Positions 2,960 through 60,816 of a stretch of 64,000 bases of DNA are shown piece after piece (the stretch's first letter is position 1; each line of letters begins with the position of its first letter). The position numbers and the translations under genes were made by a program. Source of the DNA: Candidatus Magasanikiibacteriota bacterium (lineage in GTDB: Bacteria > Patescibacteriota > Patescibacteriia > Magasanikbacterales > UBA922). The notes under the pieces were generated by a model. The model had not been told where the DNA came from and searched no databases. It was given only the letters and a program-made list of their open reading frames with translations. The stretch covers positions 388,948-452,947 of the forward strand of contig JAKITS010000001.1 of assembly GCA_021648085.1 (NCBI GenBank). Direction: 5' to 3'.

Positions 2960-3115
2960 ATTTTTTATGCGTGTTCTAAATGTTCTATCGTTTTGCTTGT
3001 TCGAAATGTTCTATTTATCCAAAATTGTCAATCCCCCAAACATTTGAAATTTTCTATTTATTAATAGGTAATCGATCCAACTTCATTTTATTTAGGATGA
3101 CGAATTAATCAATAC

Positions 3116-3255
3116 GTCATATTGAGCGAAACGAAGTGGAGTCGAAATATCTCGAAACGATATAACGATAACTGTGAATATTCAAAGTCTTATATTTTTA
3201 AACCGAGATCCGTTCGACTTCATTACGCTTTGCTACATTACGCTCAGGATAACGT
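3116..3255. repeat. Palindromic intergenic element, family A, copy 1 (an additional right-arm remnant lies at 3078-3103)
   Basis: The left arm GTCATATTGAGCGAAACGAAGTGGAGTCGAAATATCTCG is the inverted complement of the right arm CGAGATCCGTTCGACTTCATTACGCT...CGCTCAGGATAACGT. An AT-rich spacer separates them, and there is no ORF. Confidence 0.75.
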
Positions 3256-3291
3256 ATATGGTTTTTATTCTTTATCAATTATTAACTAATT

Positions 3292-4062
3292 TTAAAAAAT
3301 CAATCCTAAATACCAATCTAGCAAGTTATACCCCCAAAACATTGTAAATAAAGTAGCTACCGCCAAATAAGTTCCAAACGGAGTTTGTGATTCTAAACTT
3401 GTTCTTTTTAATGCAAGTAAAATAACACTCAAAAAAGCTCCACCAACATAAGAAAGCATTAGCGCCACAATTGCGAGTGGCCAACCCAAAATTATACCCA
3501 TCAAAACTCCAAGGCGAATATCTCCTCCGCCAATCCATTTACCACGAGAAATAGCAAATTGAAACAAGAAAAATCCACCCAAAACTACCGCACCAATTAG
3601 CATAGATTGCCAAGTATGCCAGCCAAAAATTAATGAAAGTACAAATAAAATTCCAATAGACGGCAAAGTTATTTTATCTGGCAATTCTTTGTACAAATAA
3701 TCATAAATAAACAGAAAGCTAAGTATAAAAATAATAAACCAATCTCGCAATAATTCTATGGAAAAATCATAAAAACCACTTTGGTGAATTAATGCCGCAC
3801 AGACAAAAGCTATTCCAAACCAAGTTTCTACCAAAGGATATTGAATTGAAATTTTTGCTTTGCAGTTTCTACACTTTCCTCGCAAAATTATAAAACTCAA
3901 AATTGGGATTAAATCTTTTGCAAAAATAGTTTTATTGCACTTTGGGCACATAGAACGCCCATTCATTGTTTTGTGTTTTTGTGTACGCCAAACAAAGGCA
4001 TTTGTAAAACTACCAATCACAATTCCAAACAGGAATACAATAAAAAAATATGTTAGATTCAT
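3292..4062 (-). CDS. pilD: Prepilin peptidase (A24 family, type IV pilin leader peptidase/N-methyltransferase)
   Basis: It has the N-terminal Cys-x2-Cys...Cys-x2-Cys zinc-binding box (CPKCNK...CRNCKAK), the DLIPILSFI motif, GGGDIRLGVLMG, and is polytopic. Confidence 0.85.
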   Translation of the reverse strand: MNLTYFFIVFLFGIVIGSFTNAFVWRTQKHKTMNGRSMCPKCNKTIFAKDLIPILSFIILRGKCRNCKAKISIQYPLVETWFGIAFVCAALIHQSGFYDFSIELLRDWFIIFILSFLFIYDYLYKELPDKITLPSIGILFVLSLIFGWHTWQSMLIGAVVLGGFFLFQFAISRGKWIGGGDIRLGVLMGIILGWPLAIVALMLSYVGGAFLSVILLALKRTSLESQTPFGTYLAVATLFTMFWGYNLLDWYLGLIF

Positions 4063-4103
4063 ATTAGATGTATTATAACACTAAAAGTAAAAAAATAGAA
4101 TAA

Positions 4104-4140
4104 AAAAACCACCGACTATTTCGGTGGTTTTTTATTTTTT
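4104..4140 (-). terminator. Rho-independent terminator downstream of the pilin gene
   Basis: A 9 bp perfect stem AACCACCGA/TCGGTGGTT with a 5 nt loop is followed by a T-run on the minus strand. It is flanked by an A-run on the other side, so it may be bidirectional. Confidence 0.6.
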
Positions 4141-4142
4141 TA

Positions 4143-58061: not shown

Positions 58062-58163
58062 AAATTTATTTTTATAATAAAACTAAAAAATATATATTAT
58101 TTAATTATTTTTATAAAAATTTAAACATTAAAAAATTAACAAACTTTTCTTTCATTCTTTATT

Positions 58164-58262
58164 TTACCATATTTCACTAAAGAATCCCCCAAAAGCCACC
58201 ACAAAGCCAAATATAATATATTCGCAAAATCTAAATTGTCGAAGGAATTCTATAATTTCCAT
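58164..58262 (-). pseudogene. Duplicated 5' fragment of the small membrane-protein gene fused to an rmlBD 3'-end motif copy (junction scar 1)
   Basis: MEIIEFLRQFRFCEYIIFGFVVAFGG is followed by GATTCTTTAGTGAAATATGG. Confidence 0.55.
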
Positions 58263-58263
58263 T

Positions 58264-58833
58264 TTATTTTTTAATTGATTTGAGATATTTATTATTTATT
58301 TTTTCTTTATCTTCTGTAGATAAGTTTTTTATATATTCTAAAAAAGAACCTCCAATATGAAGAATATCTTTTGCAACAATAAGTAATTCTCTATTTAAAA
58401 TAGATATACCATTAATAACAAACTGGCTACCTAAAATAAATCTATAATCAGTATCCTTTCTAATATGAATAAATTCTCCACTATGTGTAGTCAATATTTT
58501 AATAAACTCTAAGTTAGAATAACGTTTTTTATTTAATATAATATTTTTTTGATGTAAAAATTTTGTTAAAGATATTTTATTTTTAAAATAAGGTGATTCG
58601 TCAAAATTAAAAAGTTTTATTAATACAGGAAGAATATCTTCATGATCCTTTCCTTTACAAACTAAAGTTCGTAATTCATTAGCCATAGATATAAAAAAAG
58701 CAGAATGAGTGGAATAATTTTCAACTGAAGTTTTCAATAAAAATAAATGATTGTCAAGATCTTTTAATAATTTATTTAGTGATTTTTGAACTCTCATGTT
58801 TAACAATTTTTTACTTATATTTAACCCTCCCAT
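58264..58833 (-). CDS. Hypothetical protein (island cargo); its start overlaps the last codons of the rmlBD fusion
   Basis: 189 aa, with no domain recognised. Confidence 0.45.
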   Translation of the reverse strand: MGGLNISKKLLNMRVQKSLNKLLKDLDNHLFLLKTSVENYSTHSAFFISMANELRTLVCKGKDHEDILPVLIKLFNFDESPYFKNKISLTKFLHQKNIILNKKRYSNLEFIKILTTHSGEFIHIRKDTDYRFILGSQFVINGISILNRELLIVAKDILHIGGSFLEYIKNLSTEDKEKINNKYLKSIKK

Positions 58834-60658
58834 ATTTCACCAAAGAATCCCTCAATGCTTCCTTCGCTGGGCGCATTCTAATTCCATATTTTTCCAAATT
58901 TTTGGATTGTAAGAAATTGTTGGATCTTCCTTTTTTGGCGAGGCCTTGTTCTACCAATTGGTCATTTGTTATCCATTCATTTGTGTGTGTTGGGTCTACC
59001 AGCTCCTCGTACATTGAGATAATTTCGCGGTGGCGAATTGTTCCGGGATTTGTGACGTGGAATATTCCTTCTGCTTTTTTGGTTAGAAGTTGATAAAACA
59101 CATCTATCATATCATCCACTATTGTCACGCTATTTTCCACATCTATCACTTTTTCAAAACTCGCCAATTTGTCTATTAGATTCCAGTGAGCCGGTTTTGA
59201 GCCAAGTGGCATTCTAATTCTAGCAATCCCAACATTTGGCAAGGTAGAAAGCACCAAGTCTGCAGCCCATTTTGCTCTAGAATAAGTTGGTTTTGGATTT
59301 CCAAAGTCATCTTCAGTCCAACCAGCTAAATCTGGGGATTCACCATAATATATGCAACCAGAACCAACATGAAGCATGTAAACTCCGCGTTCTTGACAAG
59401 CCTCTGCAATCATAATCGGCAATTTTACATTTCCAACTATCGTGGTTAGCTGATTGTCATCGCACCAATCTACATTTGGCTTTCCACGAACTCCGGCAGT
59501 ATTCAAAACTGCTGTTGGTTGATACTTGTCCAAAAGCTCCAAAACATCTTCTTTTGAATTTATTCTTTTGTTGCTCAAAACCGCATCGTCCCAACTTTGT
59601 GCACACTCAGTTCCCATTGCACCCGCACCAATTATTAGGATATTCTTTTTCTCACTACCAAAACTTTCCATTTTTTTGTAATTTCTATAGTTTCCATTTT
59701 TTATATTTTCTAACCAACCTCTATTTTCTTTGTACCAGTTTATAGTCTCGCGAATTCCCTCTTCAAAAGAAATCAACGGCTCCCAACCCAACTTTCTTAT
59801 TTTTGTTGTGTCCATTAGATATCTCTTATCATGCCCAAGTCTGTCTGCTACATAAGTTTTCAAACTTTGTGGTTTTCCCAAAGTTTCCAAAATCAAATCT
59901 GTAATATCCTCCACACTCTTCTCCACTCCAGTTCCTAAGTTATATGCCTCTCCTGCTTTTCCTTTTAGCAAAATACATTCAATTCCTCGGTTGTGGTCGT
60001 CTACATGAATCCACTCACGCCTGTTTTGACTACTCTTGAACAATGGCAAACTTTTGTCTTCCAAAGCATTCATTGTAAAAAGTGGAATCAACTTTTCTGG
60101 AAATTGATAATGTCCATAATTGTTGGAACAATGACTAATAGAAACCGGCAACCCAAAGGTATTTGCATAAGACATCACCACATGGTTTGTACAAGCCTTG
60201 GAAGCATTGTAAGGAGTCTTGGGTGCATATGCATCACCTTCTTTGAAAGATCTGTCCTCGTCCAATTCTAGGTCTCCAAAAACCTCGCAAGTAGAAACAT
60301 GGTGAAATCTTTTTACACCTTCATTTCTAGCAGATTCTAATAAAATTTGAGTTCCAATCACATTTGTTCTTAGGAAAATCCCAGGATCTTTTACTGCGTT
60401 ATCATTGTGCGATTCTGCTGCAAAATTTACCACATAATCCACACCTTTCATTGCTTCTTTCAATTTTTCTGCATCACCAATACAGCCTTGCACAAAAGTA
60501 TAATTTGGATTGTTTTCCACATCTTTTAAATTTTCCAAATTCCCCGCATAAGTTAGCAAATCATAGTTTACCACTTTGTCGTGCCGATATTTTTTTAGCC
60601 AGTAGCGAATAAAATTTGATCCTATAAAACCAGCCCCTCCGGTTACAAGTAATTTCAT
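58811..60658 (-). CDS. Fused dTDP-glucose 4,6-dehydratase (RmlB-like, N-terminal) and dTDP-4-dehydrorhamnose reductase (RmlD-like, C-terminal)
   Basis: The N-terminus has LVTGGAGFIGSNF, YDLLTYAGN and the catalytic YxxxK. A second Rossmann GxxGxxG begins at ILIIGAGAMGTE. The total is 615 aa. Confidence 0.85.
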   Translation of the reverse strand: MKLLVTGGAGFIGSNFIRYWLKKYRHDKVVNYDLLTYAGNLENLKDVENNPNYTFVQGCIGDAEKLKEAMKGVDYVVNFAAESHNDNAVKDPGIFLRTNVIGTQILLESARNEGVKRFHHVSTCEVFGDLELDEDRSFKEGDAYAPKTPYNASKACTNHVVMSYANTFGLPVSISHCSNNYGHYQFPEKLIPLFTMNALEDKSLPLFKSSQNRREWIHVDDHNRGIECILLKGKAGEAYNLGTGVEKSVEDITDLILETLGKPQSLKTYVADRLGHDKRYLMDTTKIRKLGWEPLISFEEGIRETINWYKENRGWLENIKNGNYRNYKKMESFGSEKKNILIIGAGAMGTECAQSWDDAVLSNKRINSKEDVLELLDKYQPTAVLNTAGVRGKPNVDWCDDNQLTTIVGNVKLPIMIAEACQERGVYMLHVGSGCIYYGESPDLAGWTEDDFGNPKPTYSRAKWAADLVLSTLPNVGIARIRMPLGSKPAHWNLIDKLASFEKVIDVENSVTIVDDMIDVFYQLLTKKAEGIFHVTNPGTIRHREIISMYEELVDPTHTNEWITNDQLVEQGLAKKGRSNNFLQSKNLEKYGIRMRPAKEALRDSLVKYGRVKYK

Positions 60659-60689
60659 ACATTCTTATTATTAAATATTTTTCTGTTCC

Positions 60690-60816
60690 GTCCTAAGCTT
60701 CCCGAACATTCGAGATTTCCTGTCGACAAACAGGCAGGTTGGACTAATTTCTTTTTAATTATTTATACTTTAGTGATATTGTCTCGAGATCTTTCGACTT
60801 CGCTCAAGATGACATA
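60690..60816. repeat. Palindromic intergenic element, family A, copy 9 (diverged left arm, internal CCTGTCGACAAACAGGCAGG palindrome)
   Basis: Right arm GTCTCGAGATCTTTCGACTTCGCTCAAGATGACAT. Confidence 0.6.

What the first reader, a model, noticed from the sequence alone, without database searches (positions are those of the whole stretch)
3078..60816. Family of roughly 130 bp palindromic intergenic elements with 35-40 bp terminal inverted repeats, with at least nine full copies and several half-copies
Full copies lie at 3116-3255, 16055-16185, 19720-19861, 21798-21926, 23312-23443, 32762-32870, 48743-48889 and 60690-60816. Half-copies lie at 17450-17481, 28510-28548, 3078-3103 and 19884-19912. 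The shared termini are GTCATCCTGAGCGGAACGAAGTGGAGTCGAA(A/T)GATCTCG on the left and its inverse complement on the right, CGAGATCCATTCGACTTCATTCCGCT(TTGCTTCATTCCGCT)CAGGATGACGTG, around an AT-rich loop. Copies 21798 and 48743 share an almost identical 70 nt core, implying recent copying. All are intergenic and contain no ORF, as for MITE-like or REP-like elements that fold into long hairpins. Several sit at operon boundaries where they may act as terminators or mRNA stabilisers. A density of about one per 6 kb is high for a small genome.
Basis: seen in the sequence. Interest (0 to 1): 0.65.

Follow-up and report, generated by a model that had tools for sequence, protein, structure and literature searches.

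The report
REP-type hairpin doublets in a CPR genome
The roughly 130 bp palindromes are real, but each arm is a small self-folding hairpin found with nearly the same sequence in many bacterial phyla, so they are REP/REPIN-type repeat doublets, not transposons with plain inverted ends.

Summary
The repeat family is real. All 12 reported loci hold copies, 19 hairpin units in total, and all are intergenic. The host is a Candidatus Magasanikbacteria (CPR/Patescibacteria) genome of about 1 Mb.

Seven loci are true doublets. The locus at 60690 is only a half-copy, so "at least nine full copies" is overstated.

Each arm is a structured unit: 5'-(T/C)GTC-AU-NN-U-GAGCG-NA-[optional hairpin P2]-GN-AGUCGAA-N'N'-AU-C. 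The NN/N'N' positions covary within an arm. All seven doublets carry different variants on their two arms (AT, CC or CT). This breaks arm-to-arm pairing at those positions but keeps within-arm pairing.

The same unit occurs in Acidobacteriota, Bacteroidota, Clostridia, Verrucomicrobiota, Fibrobacter, other CPR lineages, Rickettsiales and viral contigs, usually as tag-outward doublets. A covariance model built only from those foreign units recovers 15 window units.

The closest known kind is the CGTC/TGTC-tagged REP superfamily (Neisseria dRS3/REPIN, Rickettsia RPE-4/-6). This unit differs from it in having a short stem, a conserved purine-rich internal loop and a variable P2.

No transposase was found. 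The elements lack T-tracts, and where terminators were scanned (15.5-33.5 kb) canonical ones lie nearby. Mobilisation through single-stranded DNA is inferred, not shown.

The parts
3116..3255 (.). Head-to-head doublet, subfamily A. AT-type unit at 3116-3151 (+), palindromic spacer, CC-type long unit at 3207-3253 (-).
   Evidence: Folds as a DNA hairpin with z = -2.7.
3074..3101 (-). Decayed single unit, 13 nt from the 3116 doublet, with the two tags facing each other.
   Evidence: nhmmer E = 8e-4. CM E = 0.4.
16055..16185 (.). Doublet, subfamily A in the inverted orientation. CC-type unit at 16055-16091 (+), AT-type unit at 16148-16183 (-).
   Evidence: (I1, I2). z = -4.4.
17453..17478 (-). 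Minimal single unit, CGTCATCCTGAGCGAAGTCGAAGGATC, next to a terminator-like hairpin at 17485-17519.
   Evidence: (E = 4e-5).
19719..19861 (.). Doublet, subfamily A. AT-type unit at 19719-19754 (+), CC-type long unit at 19811-19857 (-) carrying a 15-nt internal duplication.
   Evidence: z = -8.0.
19884..19912 (-). Decayed single unit just after the 19720 doublet.
   Evidence: nhmmer E = 5e-4. Not recovered by the CM.
21798..21926 (.). Doublet, subfamily B. CT-type unit at 21798-21833 (+), CC-type long unit at 21876-21922 (-).
   Evidence: z = -3.6. Core matches 48743 at 69 of 70 positions.
23312..23443 (.). Doublet, subfamily A. Decayed AT-type unit at 23312-23347 (+), CC-type unit at 23404-23440 (-). 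It starts 12 nt after the pyrF stop codon.
   Evidence: z = -0.95.
28508..28543 (+). Single AT-type unit, downstream of the terminator-like hairpin at 28409-28454.
   Evidence: (E = 0.027).
32762..32870 (.). Doublet. Minimal CC-type unit at 32762-32787 (+), AT-type unit at 32832-32867 (-). It lies in a 400-bp spacer that is 0-73 bp in relatives.
   Evidence: z = -2.7.
48743..48889 (.). Doublet, subfamily B. CT-type unit at 48743-48778 (+). The right unit (minus strand, ending at 48889) is interrupted by a roughly 30-nt GC-rich hairpin, CCTGCCTTCCGGCAGG. The doublet is wedged between two glycosyltransferase genes.
   Evidence: z = -6.6.
60788..60813 (-). Minimal single unit with a remnant of the subfamily B spacer. 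The reported left half (60690-60745) is an unrelated sequence.
   Evidence: E = 6e-5; z = -0.25 for 60690-60819.
32633..32720 (.). Second family of TGTC-tagged hairpins, as a doublet. TGTC-ATTTATGG...CCATAAAT (+) and TGTC-ATCCTC-AGCTT-GGGGAT (-).
   Evidence: Read. Weak CM hits. Homologous copies in L123 at about 80% identity. The doublet as a whole is not a significant long hairpin (z = -0.36).
32880..32955 (.). Second-family doublet: TGTC-ATTC...GAAT (+) and TGCC-ATCCA...TGGAT (-).
   Evidence: Folds as a hairpin with z = -4.8.
28639..28665 (+). Second-family single unit, TGTCATCTCTACAGCTTGATTTGGGAT.

Best explanation
The elements are head-to-head doublets, with the tags on the outside, of a 26-55 nt hairpin unit. 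A few solitary or decayed units occur as well. They are REP/REPIN-type non-autonomous repeats, not TIR transposons.

The unit is 5'-(T/C)GTC | AU-NN-U | GAGCG-NA | optional hairpin P2 | GN-AGUCGAA | N'N'-AU | C-3'. It has:
- a 5-bp stem P1 that always starts with A-U and U-A;
- a conserved purine-rich internal loop that could form tandem G.A pairs;
- a P2 that varies from absent, through 2 bp, up to about 10 bp.

What is shown:
- The family exists.
- P1 and P2 covary across phyla.
- Doublets are inherited as oriented heterodimers (AT-unit, spacer, CC-unit).
- Copies sit at non-orthologous sites, and are absent from the orthologous site in relatives.
- Two copies are nearly identical.

What is inferred: the doublet is copied within the genome as DNA, by a trans-acting enzyme that reads the tagged hairpin on single-stranded DNA. 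The most likely enzyme is a RAYT-type HUH/Y1 transposase encoded once elsewhere in the genome. The precedents are E. coli REPs, as I recall them, and Neisseria dRS3 REPINs (paper cited below). Copies survive mainly just downstream of stop codons, where they do little harm. There they are probably co-transcribed into 3' UTRs. Any effect on mRNA stability would be secondary.
For: Family and coordinates.

Within-unit pairing:
- The two free positions of P1 were not constrained by the search pattern. Both are Watson-Crick in 192 of 211 distinct units from other genomes, in 9 pair combinations (seen in the genome-scan set). Chance would give about 1 in 16.
- On alignment A1, 97.8% of cells are paired against 82.8% in shuffles. 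There are 67 double-change cells against 19, and 0 of 500 shuffles reach the observed values. Slid controls give 22-46% paired.
- P2 pairs: 556 Watson-Crick, 20 G.T and 8 A.C.

Window doublets: all 7 have different P1 variants on their two arms, while all 14 arms keep internal complementarity (13 Watson-Crick and one G.T wobble; read).

Architecture elsewhere:
- 29 tag-outward doublets against 2 tag-inward and 11 tandem. 21 of the 29 are heterodimers. Median spacer is 39 nt.
- The base before GTC, which the pattern did not constrain, is T or C in 203 of 211 units.

Breadth: the unit occurs in more than 10 phyla, in genomes from 29% to 74% GC, and in 107 viral-contig stretches.

Mobility:
- The PurA/Dus junction is 400 bp and holds three doublets here. 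In a relative at 80% PurA identity the two genes overlap, and in one at 70% the spacer is 73 bp. Neither relative contig holds any unit.
- A heterodimer 75% identical to 16055 lies between dnaK and dnaJ in metagenome contig L123, which is a non-orthologous site.
- 21798 and 48743 match at 69 of 70 core positions.

Orientation: random relative to transcription, 48 against 42.

Literature:
- CGTC/TGTC-tagged REPs have stems that start with AT, a 3-nt tail, predominant tag-outward (HH) dimers and 20-100 bp spacers (PMC3733652).
- The Neisseria REPIN seed ATTCCCGCGCAGGCGGGAATC tracks a Group 2 RAYT (bioRxiv 10.1101/2021.07.10.451892). That seed corresponds to dRS3, the CGTC-1 family.
Against: - No transposase of any kind was found in the window.
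- The only RAYT-like gene among about 230 fetched loci (L059) is flanked by a different hairpin, not by this unit.
- PMC3733652 reports that CGTC repeats lack a dedicated transposase.
- Nearest-neighbour folding does not predict stable single units in the window. Their z-scores are +0.8 to +1.8. P1 therefore rests on covariation, and probably on non-canonical pairs or a bound protein.
- The strand bias of wobble pairs is modest: 30 G.T against 14 A.C, p = 0.02.
- Near-identity of the loop across phyla is unusual for REPs, which normally differ between species.
- No precise insertion junction could be defined, because the nearest relatives are only 70-80% identical in protein.
Confidence: 0.68

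Rival explanations
1. They are classical MITEs: internally deleted copies of a DDE-type insertion sequence. The 35-40 bp terminal inverted repeats would be bound by that transposase as double-stranded DNA.
For: The size is about 130 bp and the overall shape is an inverted repeat. The elements are multicopy, intergenic and AT-rich in the centre.
Against: - I saw no target-site duplication on reading the flanks.
- Solitary arms are common.
- Arms have internal covariation, and the two arms differ at the stem positions that covary within an arm.
- The arm sequence is shared by many phyla, with variable internal hairpins. TIRs do not behave this way.
- No related transposase was found between distant inverted pairs. 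L100 holds a group II intron. L083, L085 and L092 hold what read as ordinary cellular ORFs, with no transposase-like product.
Confidence: 0.06
2. The unit is mainly a functional RNA motif, such as a protein-binding or processing hairpin in 3' UTRs. It would be kept by selection on transcripts, and its copy number would reflect function rather than mobility.
For: - There is strong covariation, and the unpaired nucleotides are conserved.
- G.T is commoner than A.C on the GTCAT strand, 30 against 14.
- Window copies mostly lie within about 55 nt of a stop codon, and several lie within about 15 nt.
Against: - Single units show no orientation preference relative to the flanking genes, 48 sense against 42 antisense.
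- Subfamily A doublets occur in both orientations in the same ++ gene context, at 19720 and 16055.
- Some units lie next to terminator-like hairpins and probably outside the transcripts.
- A copy sits in frame inside a coding region in L059.
- No Rfam family matches.
- Single units have weak predicted stability.
Confidence: 0.12
3. The units are chromosomal binding sites for a host DNA protein, such as gyrase, a nucleoid protein or a recombinase. They would be kept for chromosome structure, as proposed for E. coli BIMEs.
For: The sequence is conserved across phyla. Units are clustered in some spacers. The Neisseria relatives, dRS3, are known recombination targets (from my own knowledge).
Against: - Distribution is patchy: 12 kb of contigs from the two closest relatives hold none.
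- Copy number and stem sequence vary from genome to genome.
- Units also occur in viral contigs.
- Decayed copies are present in the window.
Confidence: 0.06

Closest known systems
CGTC/TGTC-tagged REP superfamily (Di Nocera, De Gregorio and Rocco 2013, PMC3733652). It includes Neisseria dRS3 and Rickettsia RPE-4 and RPE-6.
   Same: - Unpaired 5' tag CGTC or TGTC.
- Stem whose first two pairs are A-T and T-A.
- Short unpaired tail that starts with C or T.
- Mostly tag-outward (HH) dimers, often heterodimers, with spacers of 20-100 bp.
- Intergenic position, with occasional in-frame intragenic copies.
- No transposase gene flanked by the units.
   Different: - The described families have 8-9 bp stems and 4-5 nt loops. 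Here only 5 Watson-Crick pairs are followed by a conserved purine-rich internal loop (GAGCG...AGUCGAA) and an optional hairpin that ranges from 2 bp up to about 10 bp.
- The unit sequence is nearly the same in many phyla that the 2013 survey did not cover: Acidobacteriota, Clostridia, Verrucomicrobiota, Fibrobacter and CPR.
- The window's second family (32633-32955) is closer to the canonical type, and its L123 homologue is fully canonical.
REPIN-RAYT systems (Bertels and Rainey; bioRxiv 10.1101/2021.07.10.451892)
   Same: - Two inverted REPs that form a long hairpin are the replicating unit.
- Singlets look like decayed doublets.
- Near-identical copies exist alongside older, diverged copies.
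   Different: - No RAYT has been identified for this family.
- The host is a CPR genome of about 1 Mb, whereas tnpA-REP-like genes are reported to be associated with larger genomes (PMC6006769).
- The unit is shared across phyla, whereas REPINs are usually lineage-specific and vertically inherited.
Bacterial MITEs such as Correia (Neisseria) and RUP (Streptococcus)
   Same: A length of about 100-150 bp, inverted ends, intergenic position and many copies.
   Different: No target-site duplication was seen, and no parental insertion sequence is known. The arms are autonomous hairpins with internal covariation, and they occur alone.

Membership tests
CGTC-tagged REP superfamily (PMC3733652) | Unpaired 5' tag CGTC, which may be TGTC or CCTC. 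| tested here: met
   Window units: 7 CGTC, 6 TGTC and 6 decayed variants. In 211 foreign units the unconstrained base before GTC is T in 175 and C in 28.
CGTC-tagged REP superfamily (PMC3733652) | Stem begins with complementary A-T and T-A pairs. | tested here: met
   AT...AT is present in all 46 aligned units, including the 10 window units and the L123 unit. For the foreign units these positions were fixed by the search pattern, so only the window units and L123 (11 sequences) are an independent test.
CGTC-tagged REP superfamily (PMC3733652) | Stem of 8-9 bp and loop of 4-5 nt. | tested here: not met
   Family 1 has 5 Watson-Crick pairs, then G.A/A.G and one G-C, then a loop or internal loop of 6 to more than 40 nt that contains P2. 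The second family does better: the L123 copy TGTC-ATTCCCGG-CTTGA-CCGGGAAT-CC meets the criterion.
CGTC-tagged REP superfamily (PMC3733652) | Tag-outward (HH) dimers predominate, with spacers of 20-100 bp. | tested here: met
   All 7 window doublets are tag-outward, with spacers of about 45-55 nt. Elsewhere there are 29 HH, 2 TT and 11 HT.
CGTC-tagged REP superfamily (PMC3733652) | Located mainly between unidirectional or convergent genes. | tested here: met
   In the window, by my own gene calls, 5 of 7 convergent junctions and none of 7 divergent junctions carry elements. In the wider sample, with crude ORF calls, there is no bias: 46 convergent against 40 divergent.
REPIN-RAYT system | A single-copy RAYT (HUH/Y1 transposase) gene flanked by the same REP. 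| not testable with these tools
   Only 64 kb of the 984-kb contig is available, and it holds no Y1-like ORF. The one RAYT-like ORF found, in L059, is flanked by a different hairpin.
REPIN-RAYT system | Inverted REP doublet that forms a long hairpin. | tested here: met
   Six of the seven doublets fold with z from -2.7 to -8.0.
TIR-type MITE | Flanking target-site duplication. | tested here: not met
   I found no direct repeat on reading the flanks of the seven doublets. This was a visual check of 15-nt flanks, not a computed search.
TIR-type MITE | A related autonomous insertion sequence with the same termini. | tested here: inconclusive
   None was found among about 230 loci. Distant inverted pairs enclose a group II intron or what read as ordinary cellular ORFs. 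Whole genomes were not searched.
Any Rfam RNA family | A match at or near the gathering score. | tested here: not met
   The window and 18 loci give only a tRNA and an AdoCbl riboswitch. The permissive search gives only chance hits to miRNA-precursor hairpins.

The most novel reading that the evidence does not exclude
The arms are copies of one sequence-conserved, structured hairpin: a (T/C)GTC tag, a covarying 5-bp stem, a GAGCG...AGUCGAA purine loop and a variable inserted helix. It is shared almost unchanged by genomes from 29% to 74% GC in more than ten phyla, and by viral contigs. This would make it a pan-bacterial mobile hairpin whose mobilising enzyme or binding partner is unknown. Finding that partner could answer the open question of what propagates CGTC-type REPs.
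Probability: 0.22. Interest if true: 0.75.

Novelty: new variant of a known kind. Interest (0 to 1): 0.5.

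Why it matters
CPR/Patescibacteria genomes are small and streamlined. Even so, I estimate that about 2% of this window, and about a fifth of its intergenic DNA, is made of REP-type hairpin doublets. This is comparable to Rickettsia.

The wider point is that the arm is not lineage-specific. 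The same tagged hairpin, with compensatory changes in two helices and an almost invariant purine loop, recurs across distant phyla and in viral contigs. No named description or Rfam model was found for it.

CGTC-type REPs are the REP class for which no dedicated transposase has been established. A unit this well defined can be scanned for with a covariance model. That makes a co-occurrence search for the responsible enzyme practical.

The practical use is in annotation. These units generate spurious ORFs (peptides such as ...HPERSRRI... and ...VILSE...) and distort the predicted ends of genes.

Tried and rejected
- **Rfam.** Gathering thresholds on the window and 18 loci, plus a permissive search on a doublet, gave no family.
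- **Composite transposon or autonomous element between distant inverted units.** L100 holds a group II intron. L083, L085 and L092 hold what read as ordinary cellular ORFs, with no transposase-like product.
- **RAYT search.** I ran tblastn with an E. coli RAYT sequence written from memory and with the L059 ORF, against the window and all loci. Only L059 matched, and it is not flanked by this unit.
- **ORF 16230-17144.** It is flanked by units on both sides, but it is not HUH-like.
- **Terminator role.** No element in 15.5-33.5 kb is called terminator-like, and separate terminators are present there.
- **Generic census of '(C/T)GTCAT plus a 5-bp stem'.** It gave 26 hits against 22.9 in shuffles, so it is not informative in this AT-rich DNA.
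- **First wobble count.** The count I first formed, about 19 G.T against 4 A.C, was biased by how runs were scored. The fair count is 30 against 14.
- **Sequence-string searches of the literature.** Only unrelated papers came back.
- **BLAST of a unit.** No match in phage records. In plasmids, only two unannotated Hymenobacter hits.
- **The look-up of encoding contigs for the source PurA.** It is not on record, so the rest of the genome could not be fetched.

Full report
**Source and setting.** The window is about 31% G+C. Its adenylosuccinate synthase is 100% identical to a protein annotated as Candidatus Magasanikbacteria, from a 984,181-bp contig. The gene content fits a CPR/Patescibacteria genome: NAD-dependent ligase, prepilin peptidase, a TraG/VirD4-like ATPase, DnaX, PyrF, PurA, Dus and glycosyltransferases. 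No transposase domain was found in the 20 ORFs scanned, which include all those flanking elements.

- The left-terminus 31-mer matches three times at up to 3 mismatches, against none in 100 shuffles.
- Repeat detection groups the termini into families D2, D4, D5, D7 and D10. It also finds whole-element inverted matches, for example 16028-16181 against 23314-23467.
- An nhmmer profile of the arms finds 19 units, all at the reported places, and only noise otherwise.
- All lie between ORFs. The exception is 48743-48889, which overlaps the last codons of one glycosyltransferase gene and the predicted start of the next.
- As single-stranded DNA, six doublets fold better than shuffles, with z from -2.7 to -8.0. 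23312 is decayed (z = -0.95). 60690-60819 is not a palindrome (z = -0.25); only its right end is a unit.
- So there are seven doublets and five solitary units, not nine or more full copies.
- 21798 and 48743 match at 69 of 70 core positions.

**The arms are structured units, not plain inverted repeats.** Reading the arms in one orientation shows the following layout:

(T/C)GTC - AT NN T - GAGCG NA - [x] - GN AGTCGAA - N'N' AT - CTC

- NN/N'N' is AT/AT, CC/GG or CT/AG, and is always complementary within an arm.
- In all seven doublets the two arms carry different variants: AT against CC in five, CT against CC or CT/GG in two.
- The long arm-to-arm hairpin is therefore mismatched at these stem positions, which are compensated inside each arm.
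- The five AT/CC doublets are one oriented element (AT-unit, palindromic spacer centred on GAATATTC, CC-unit). It is present in both orientations (I1 and I2).
- The other two doublets form a second subfamily with a different spacer.

**The same unit is found across bacteria.**
- A scan of one genome per GTDB species used the pattern GTCATNNTGAGCGN{0,30}GTCGAAN{2,3}ATC.
- The loci come from Acidobacteriota, Bacteroidota (Hymenobacter, Sphingobacteriales), Clostridia, Verrucomicrobiota, Fibrobacter, Dehalococcoidia, Actinomycetota, Gemmatimonadota, Gammaproteobacteria, Rickettsiales, Vampirovibrio and four other CPR lineages.
- Host G+C ranges from 29% to 74%.
- Viral contigs gave 107 further stretches.
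- The NN and N'N' positions were free in the pattern. Both pairs are Watson-Crick in 192 of 211 distinct units, in nine pair combinations.
- The insert between GAGCG-NA and GN-AGTCGAA is a hairpin that ranges from 2 bp (GC-GNA-GC, AC-GAA-GT, GT-GAA-AC, AT-GAA-AT) up to about 10 bp. Its pairs are 556 Watson-Crick, 20 G.T and 8 A.C.
- On a 46-sequence alignment, the named structure has 97.8% of cells paired against 82.8% in shuffles. It has 67 double-change cells against 19, with 0 of 500 shuffles reaching the observed values. Slid controls give 22-46%.
- The base before GTC, also unconstrained, is T or C in 96% of units.
- A covariance model built only from 35 foreign units recovers 15 window units at E<0.05.

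Caveats:
- GAGCG and GTCGAA were fixed by the pattern, so their conservation is only assessed independently in the window's own copies.
- Nearest-neighbour folding does not predict stable single units in the window, with z from +0.8 to +1.8. P1 rests on covariation, and probably on non-canonical G.A pairs or a bound protein.

**Architecture elsewhere.** Neighbouring units are tag-outward in 29 cases, tag-inward in 2 and tandem in 11. Of the 29 tag-outward doublets, 21 are heterodimers, and the median spacer is 39 nt. One viral contig (L171) has 13 units arranged as CC/TC heterodimers between genes.

**Evidence on mobility.**
- The PurA-Dus junction is 400 bp here and is almost filled by three doublets.
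- In a relative with 80% identical PurA the two genes overlap. In one at 70% the spacer is 73 bp.
- Neither relative contig has any unit.
- A metagenome contig (L123) has a CC/AT heterodimer 75% identical to 16055. There it lies between dnaK and dnaJ, next to a second-family hairpin.
- 21798 and 48743 are near-identical except in the 7-nt P2 of the left unit: ACGCAGT against GTGAAAC. Both versions are self-complementary, which suggests module exchange between units.
- I saw no target duplication on reading the flanks.

**Function.**
- The elements mostly lie within about 55 nt of a stop codon, and several lie within about 15 nt. They are probably transcribed into 3' UTRs.
- In the stretch scanned (15.5-33.5 kb), none is called terminator-like, and separate canonical terminators lie nearby at 17485-17519, 23594-23618, 28409-28454 and 32968-33001. 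The elements lack a T-run.
- By my own gene calls, 5 of 7 convergent junctions and none of 7 divergent junctions in the window carry elements.
- In the wider sample, with crude ORF calls, there is no such bias. Solitary units are sense 48 times and antisense 42 times relative to the flanking genes. This argues against a strand-specific RNA role.
- G.T outnumbers A.C by 30 to 14 on the GTCAT strand (p = 0.02). This is a modest sign that this strand is the one that folds.

**Comparison with what is known.**
- Di Nocera et al. (PMC3733652) define CGTC-tagged REPs as follows:
  - a tag CGTC or TGTC;
  - stems that start with AT;
  - 8-9 bp stems with 4-5 nt loops;
  - a 3-nt tail;
  - predominant HH dimers (tags outside) with 20-100 bp spacers;
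  - homo- or heterodimers;
  - intergenic position, with some intragenic copies;
  - no dedicated transposase.
- Their members include Neisseria dRS3 and Rickettsia RPE-4 and RPE-6.
- Their survey did not include CPR, Acidobacteria, Clostridia or Hymenobacter.
- Bertels et al. show that the Neisseria REPIN seed ATTCCCGCGCAGGCGGGAATC, which corresponds to dRS3, tracks a Group 2 RAYT and decays where that gene is frameshifted.
- The window's units meet every criterion except stem and loop size.
- The window's second, smaller family (32633-32720, 32880-32955, 28639-28665) is closer to the canonical form. Its L123 homologue, TGTC-ATTCCCGG-CTTGA-CCGGGAAT-CC, meets the criterion fully.
- I therefore describe family 1 as a new variant of this known kind. 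It works like a REPIN. It is not a member of the described families CGTC-1 to CGTC-4.

**What was not found.**
- No Rfam family.
- No paper containing the sequence strings.
- No annotated match in phage or plasmid records.
- No RAYT next to a unit.
- The rest of the source genome could not be fetched. The key prediction, a single-copy HUH/Y1 gene flanked by units, therefore remains untested.

**Verdict.** Interest is moderate. These are ordinary as REP-type repeats. The cross-phylum conservation of a covarying, purine-looped hairpin with no known partner is worth a systematic follow-up.

Noticed in passing
window 20792-20890 and 63049-63147: A third hairpin family with two copies, 73% identical. 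The outer A/T stem encloses TGAG(T/C)GAGAC...GAAGTCGCAGCC, and there is a long A/T-rich inner helix whose tip differs between the copies. It resembles the REP unit (TGAGCG...[helix]...GAAGTCG). Both copies fold well (z = -2.3 and -6.9). The second copy lies in frame inside ORF 61242-63548 (-), a 768-aa protein with no Pfam match whose N-terminal sequence looks hydrophobic. It may be an intragenic insertion of the Rickettsia RPE kind.
   Followed up: partly
L100 2701-4726 (uncultured bacterium contig from the genome scan): A group II intron (Rfam D1-D4 and domain V/VI hits, reverse-transcriptase ORF at 3173-4549) starts with GTGCG only about 7 nt after a unit. It lies inside a tag-outward doublet. 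This suggests that the hairpin serves as an intron homing site, as terminators and attC sites do for class C introns.
   Followed up: partly
L059 4819-4855 and 3765-4253: In an Acidobacteriales genome, a unit lies in frame inside a 1099-aa ORF that looks like a ribonucleotide reductase (not checked against a profile library). It encodes ...AVILSESAAESKDP.... About 280 nt downstream is a RAYT-like ORF (HIH motif, E = 6e-12 to an E. coli RAYT sequence written from memory). That ORF is flanked by a different GGCACGG...CCGTGCC hairpin.
   Followed up: partly
window 21814-21820 versus 48759-48765: Two otherwise near-identical doublets differ by five changes, all within the 7-nt inner hairpin of the left unit: ACGCAGT against GTGAAAC. 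Both versions are self-complementary. The second version also occurs in the units at 16148, 23404 and 32832. This suggests exchange of modules between units.
   Followed up: partly
window 48800-48850 and 60715-60745: Short GC-rich hairpins are inserted in or next to REP units: CCTGCCTTCCGGCAGG inside the right arm of 48743, and CCTGTCGACAAACAGGCAGG beside the 60788 unit. They may be another small mobile hairpin.
   Followed up: no
window 2975-3050, 17213-17245, 19977-20010, 60690-60715: A recurrent motif around GAACATTTGAAATTT or GTTCGAAATGTTC, often preceded by a C-rich run, occurs in several intergenic regions near REP elements. It could be a regulatory site or another repeat family.
   Followed up: no
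window 23480-23590 and 17990-18020: Clusters of short motifs of the form ATCAAGCGAAGCGATCGATC and ATCAAGCGCTAGCGATCCATC lie in intergenic DNA. They may be further decayed small palindromes.
   Followed up: no
window 10401-11251: There are internal tandem or nested repeats (periods of 117, 321 and 438 nt, 71-78% identity) inside the 839-aa ORF 10332-12851 (+). This points to a repetitive protein.
   Followed up: no
window 53200-58900: Three to four paralogous segments (repeat families D8, D9 and D14, 68-82% identity) cover the starts and upstream regions of small ORFs of 188-219 aa with no Pfam match (53330-53896, 55095-55754, 58264-58833). This looks like a local gene-family expansion.
   Followed up: no
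L171 (IMG/VR contig, 59% GC): Thirteen units lie within 14 kb of a predicted viral contig. They are arranged as CC/TC heterodimers between genes. This is much denser than in the bacterial loci.
   Followed up: partly
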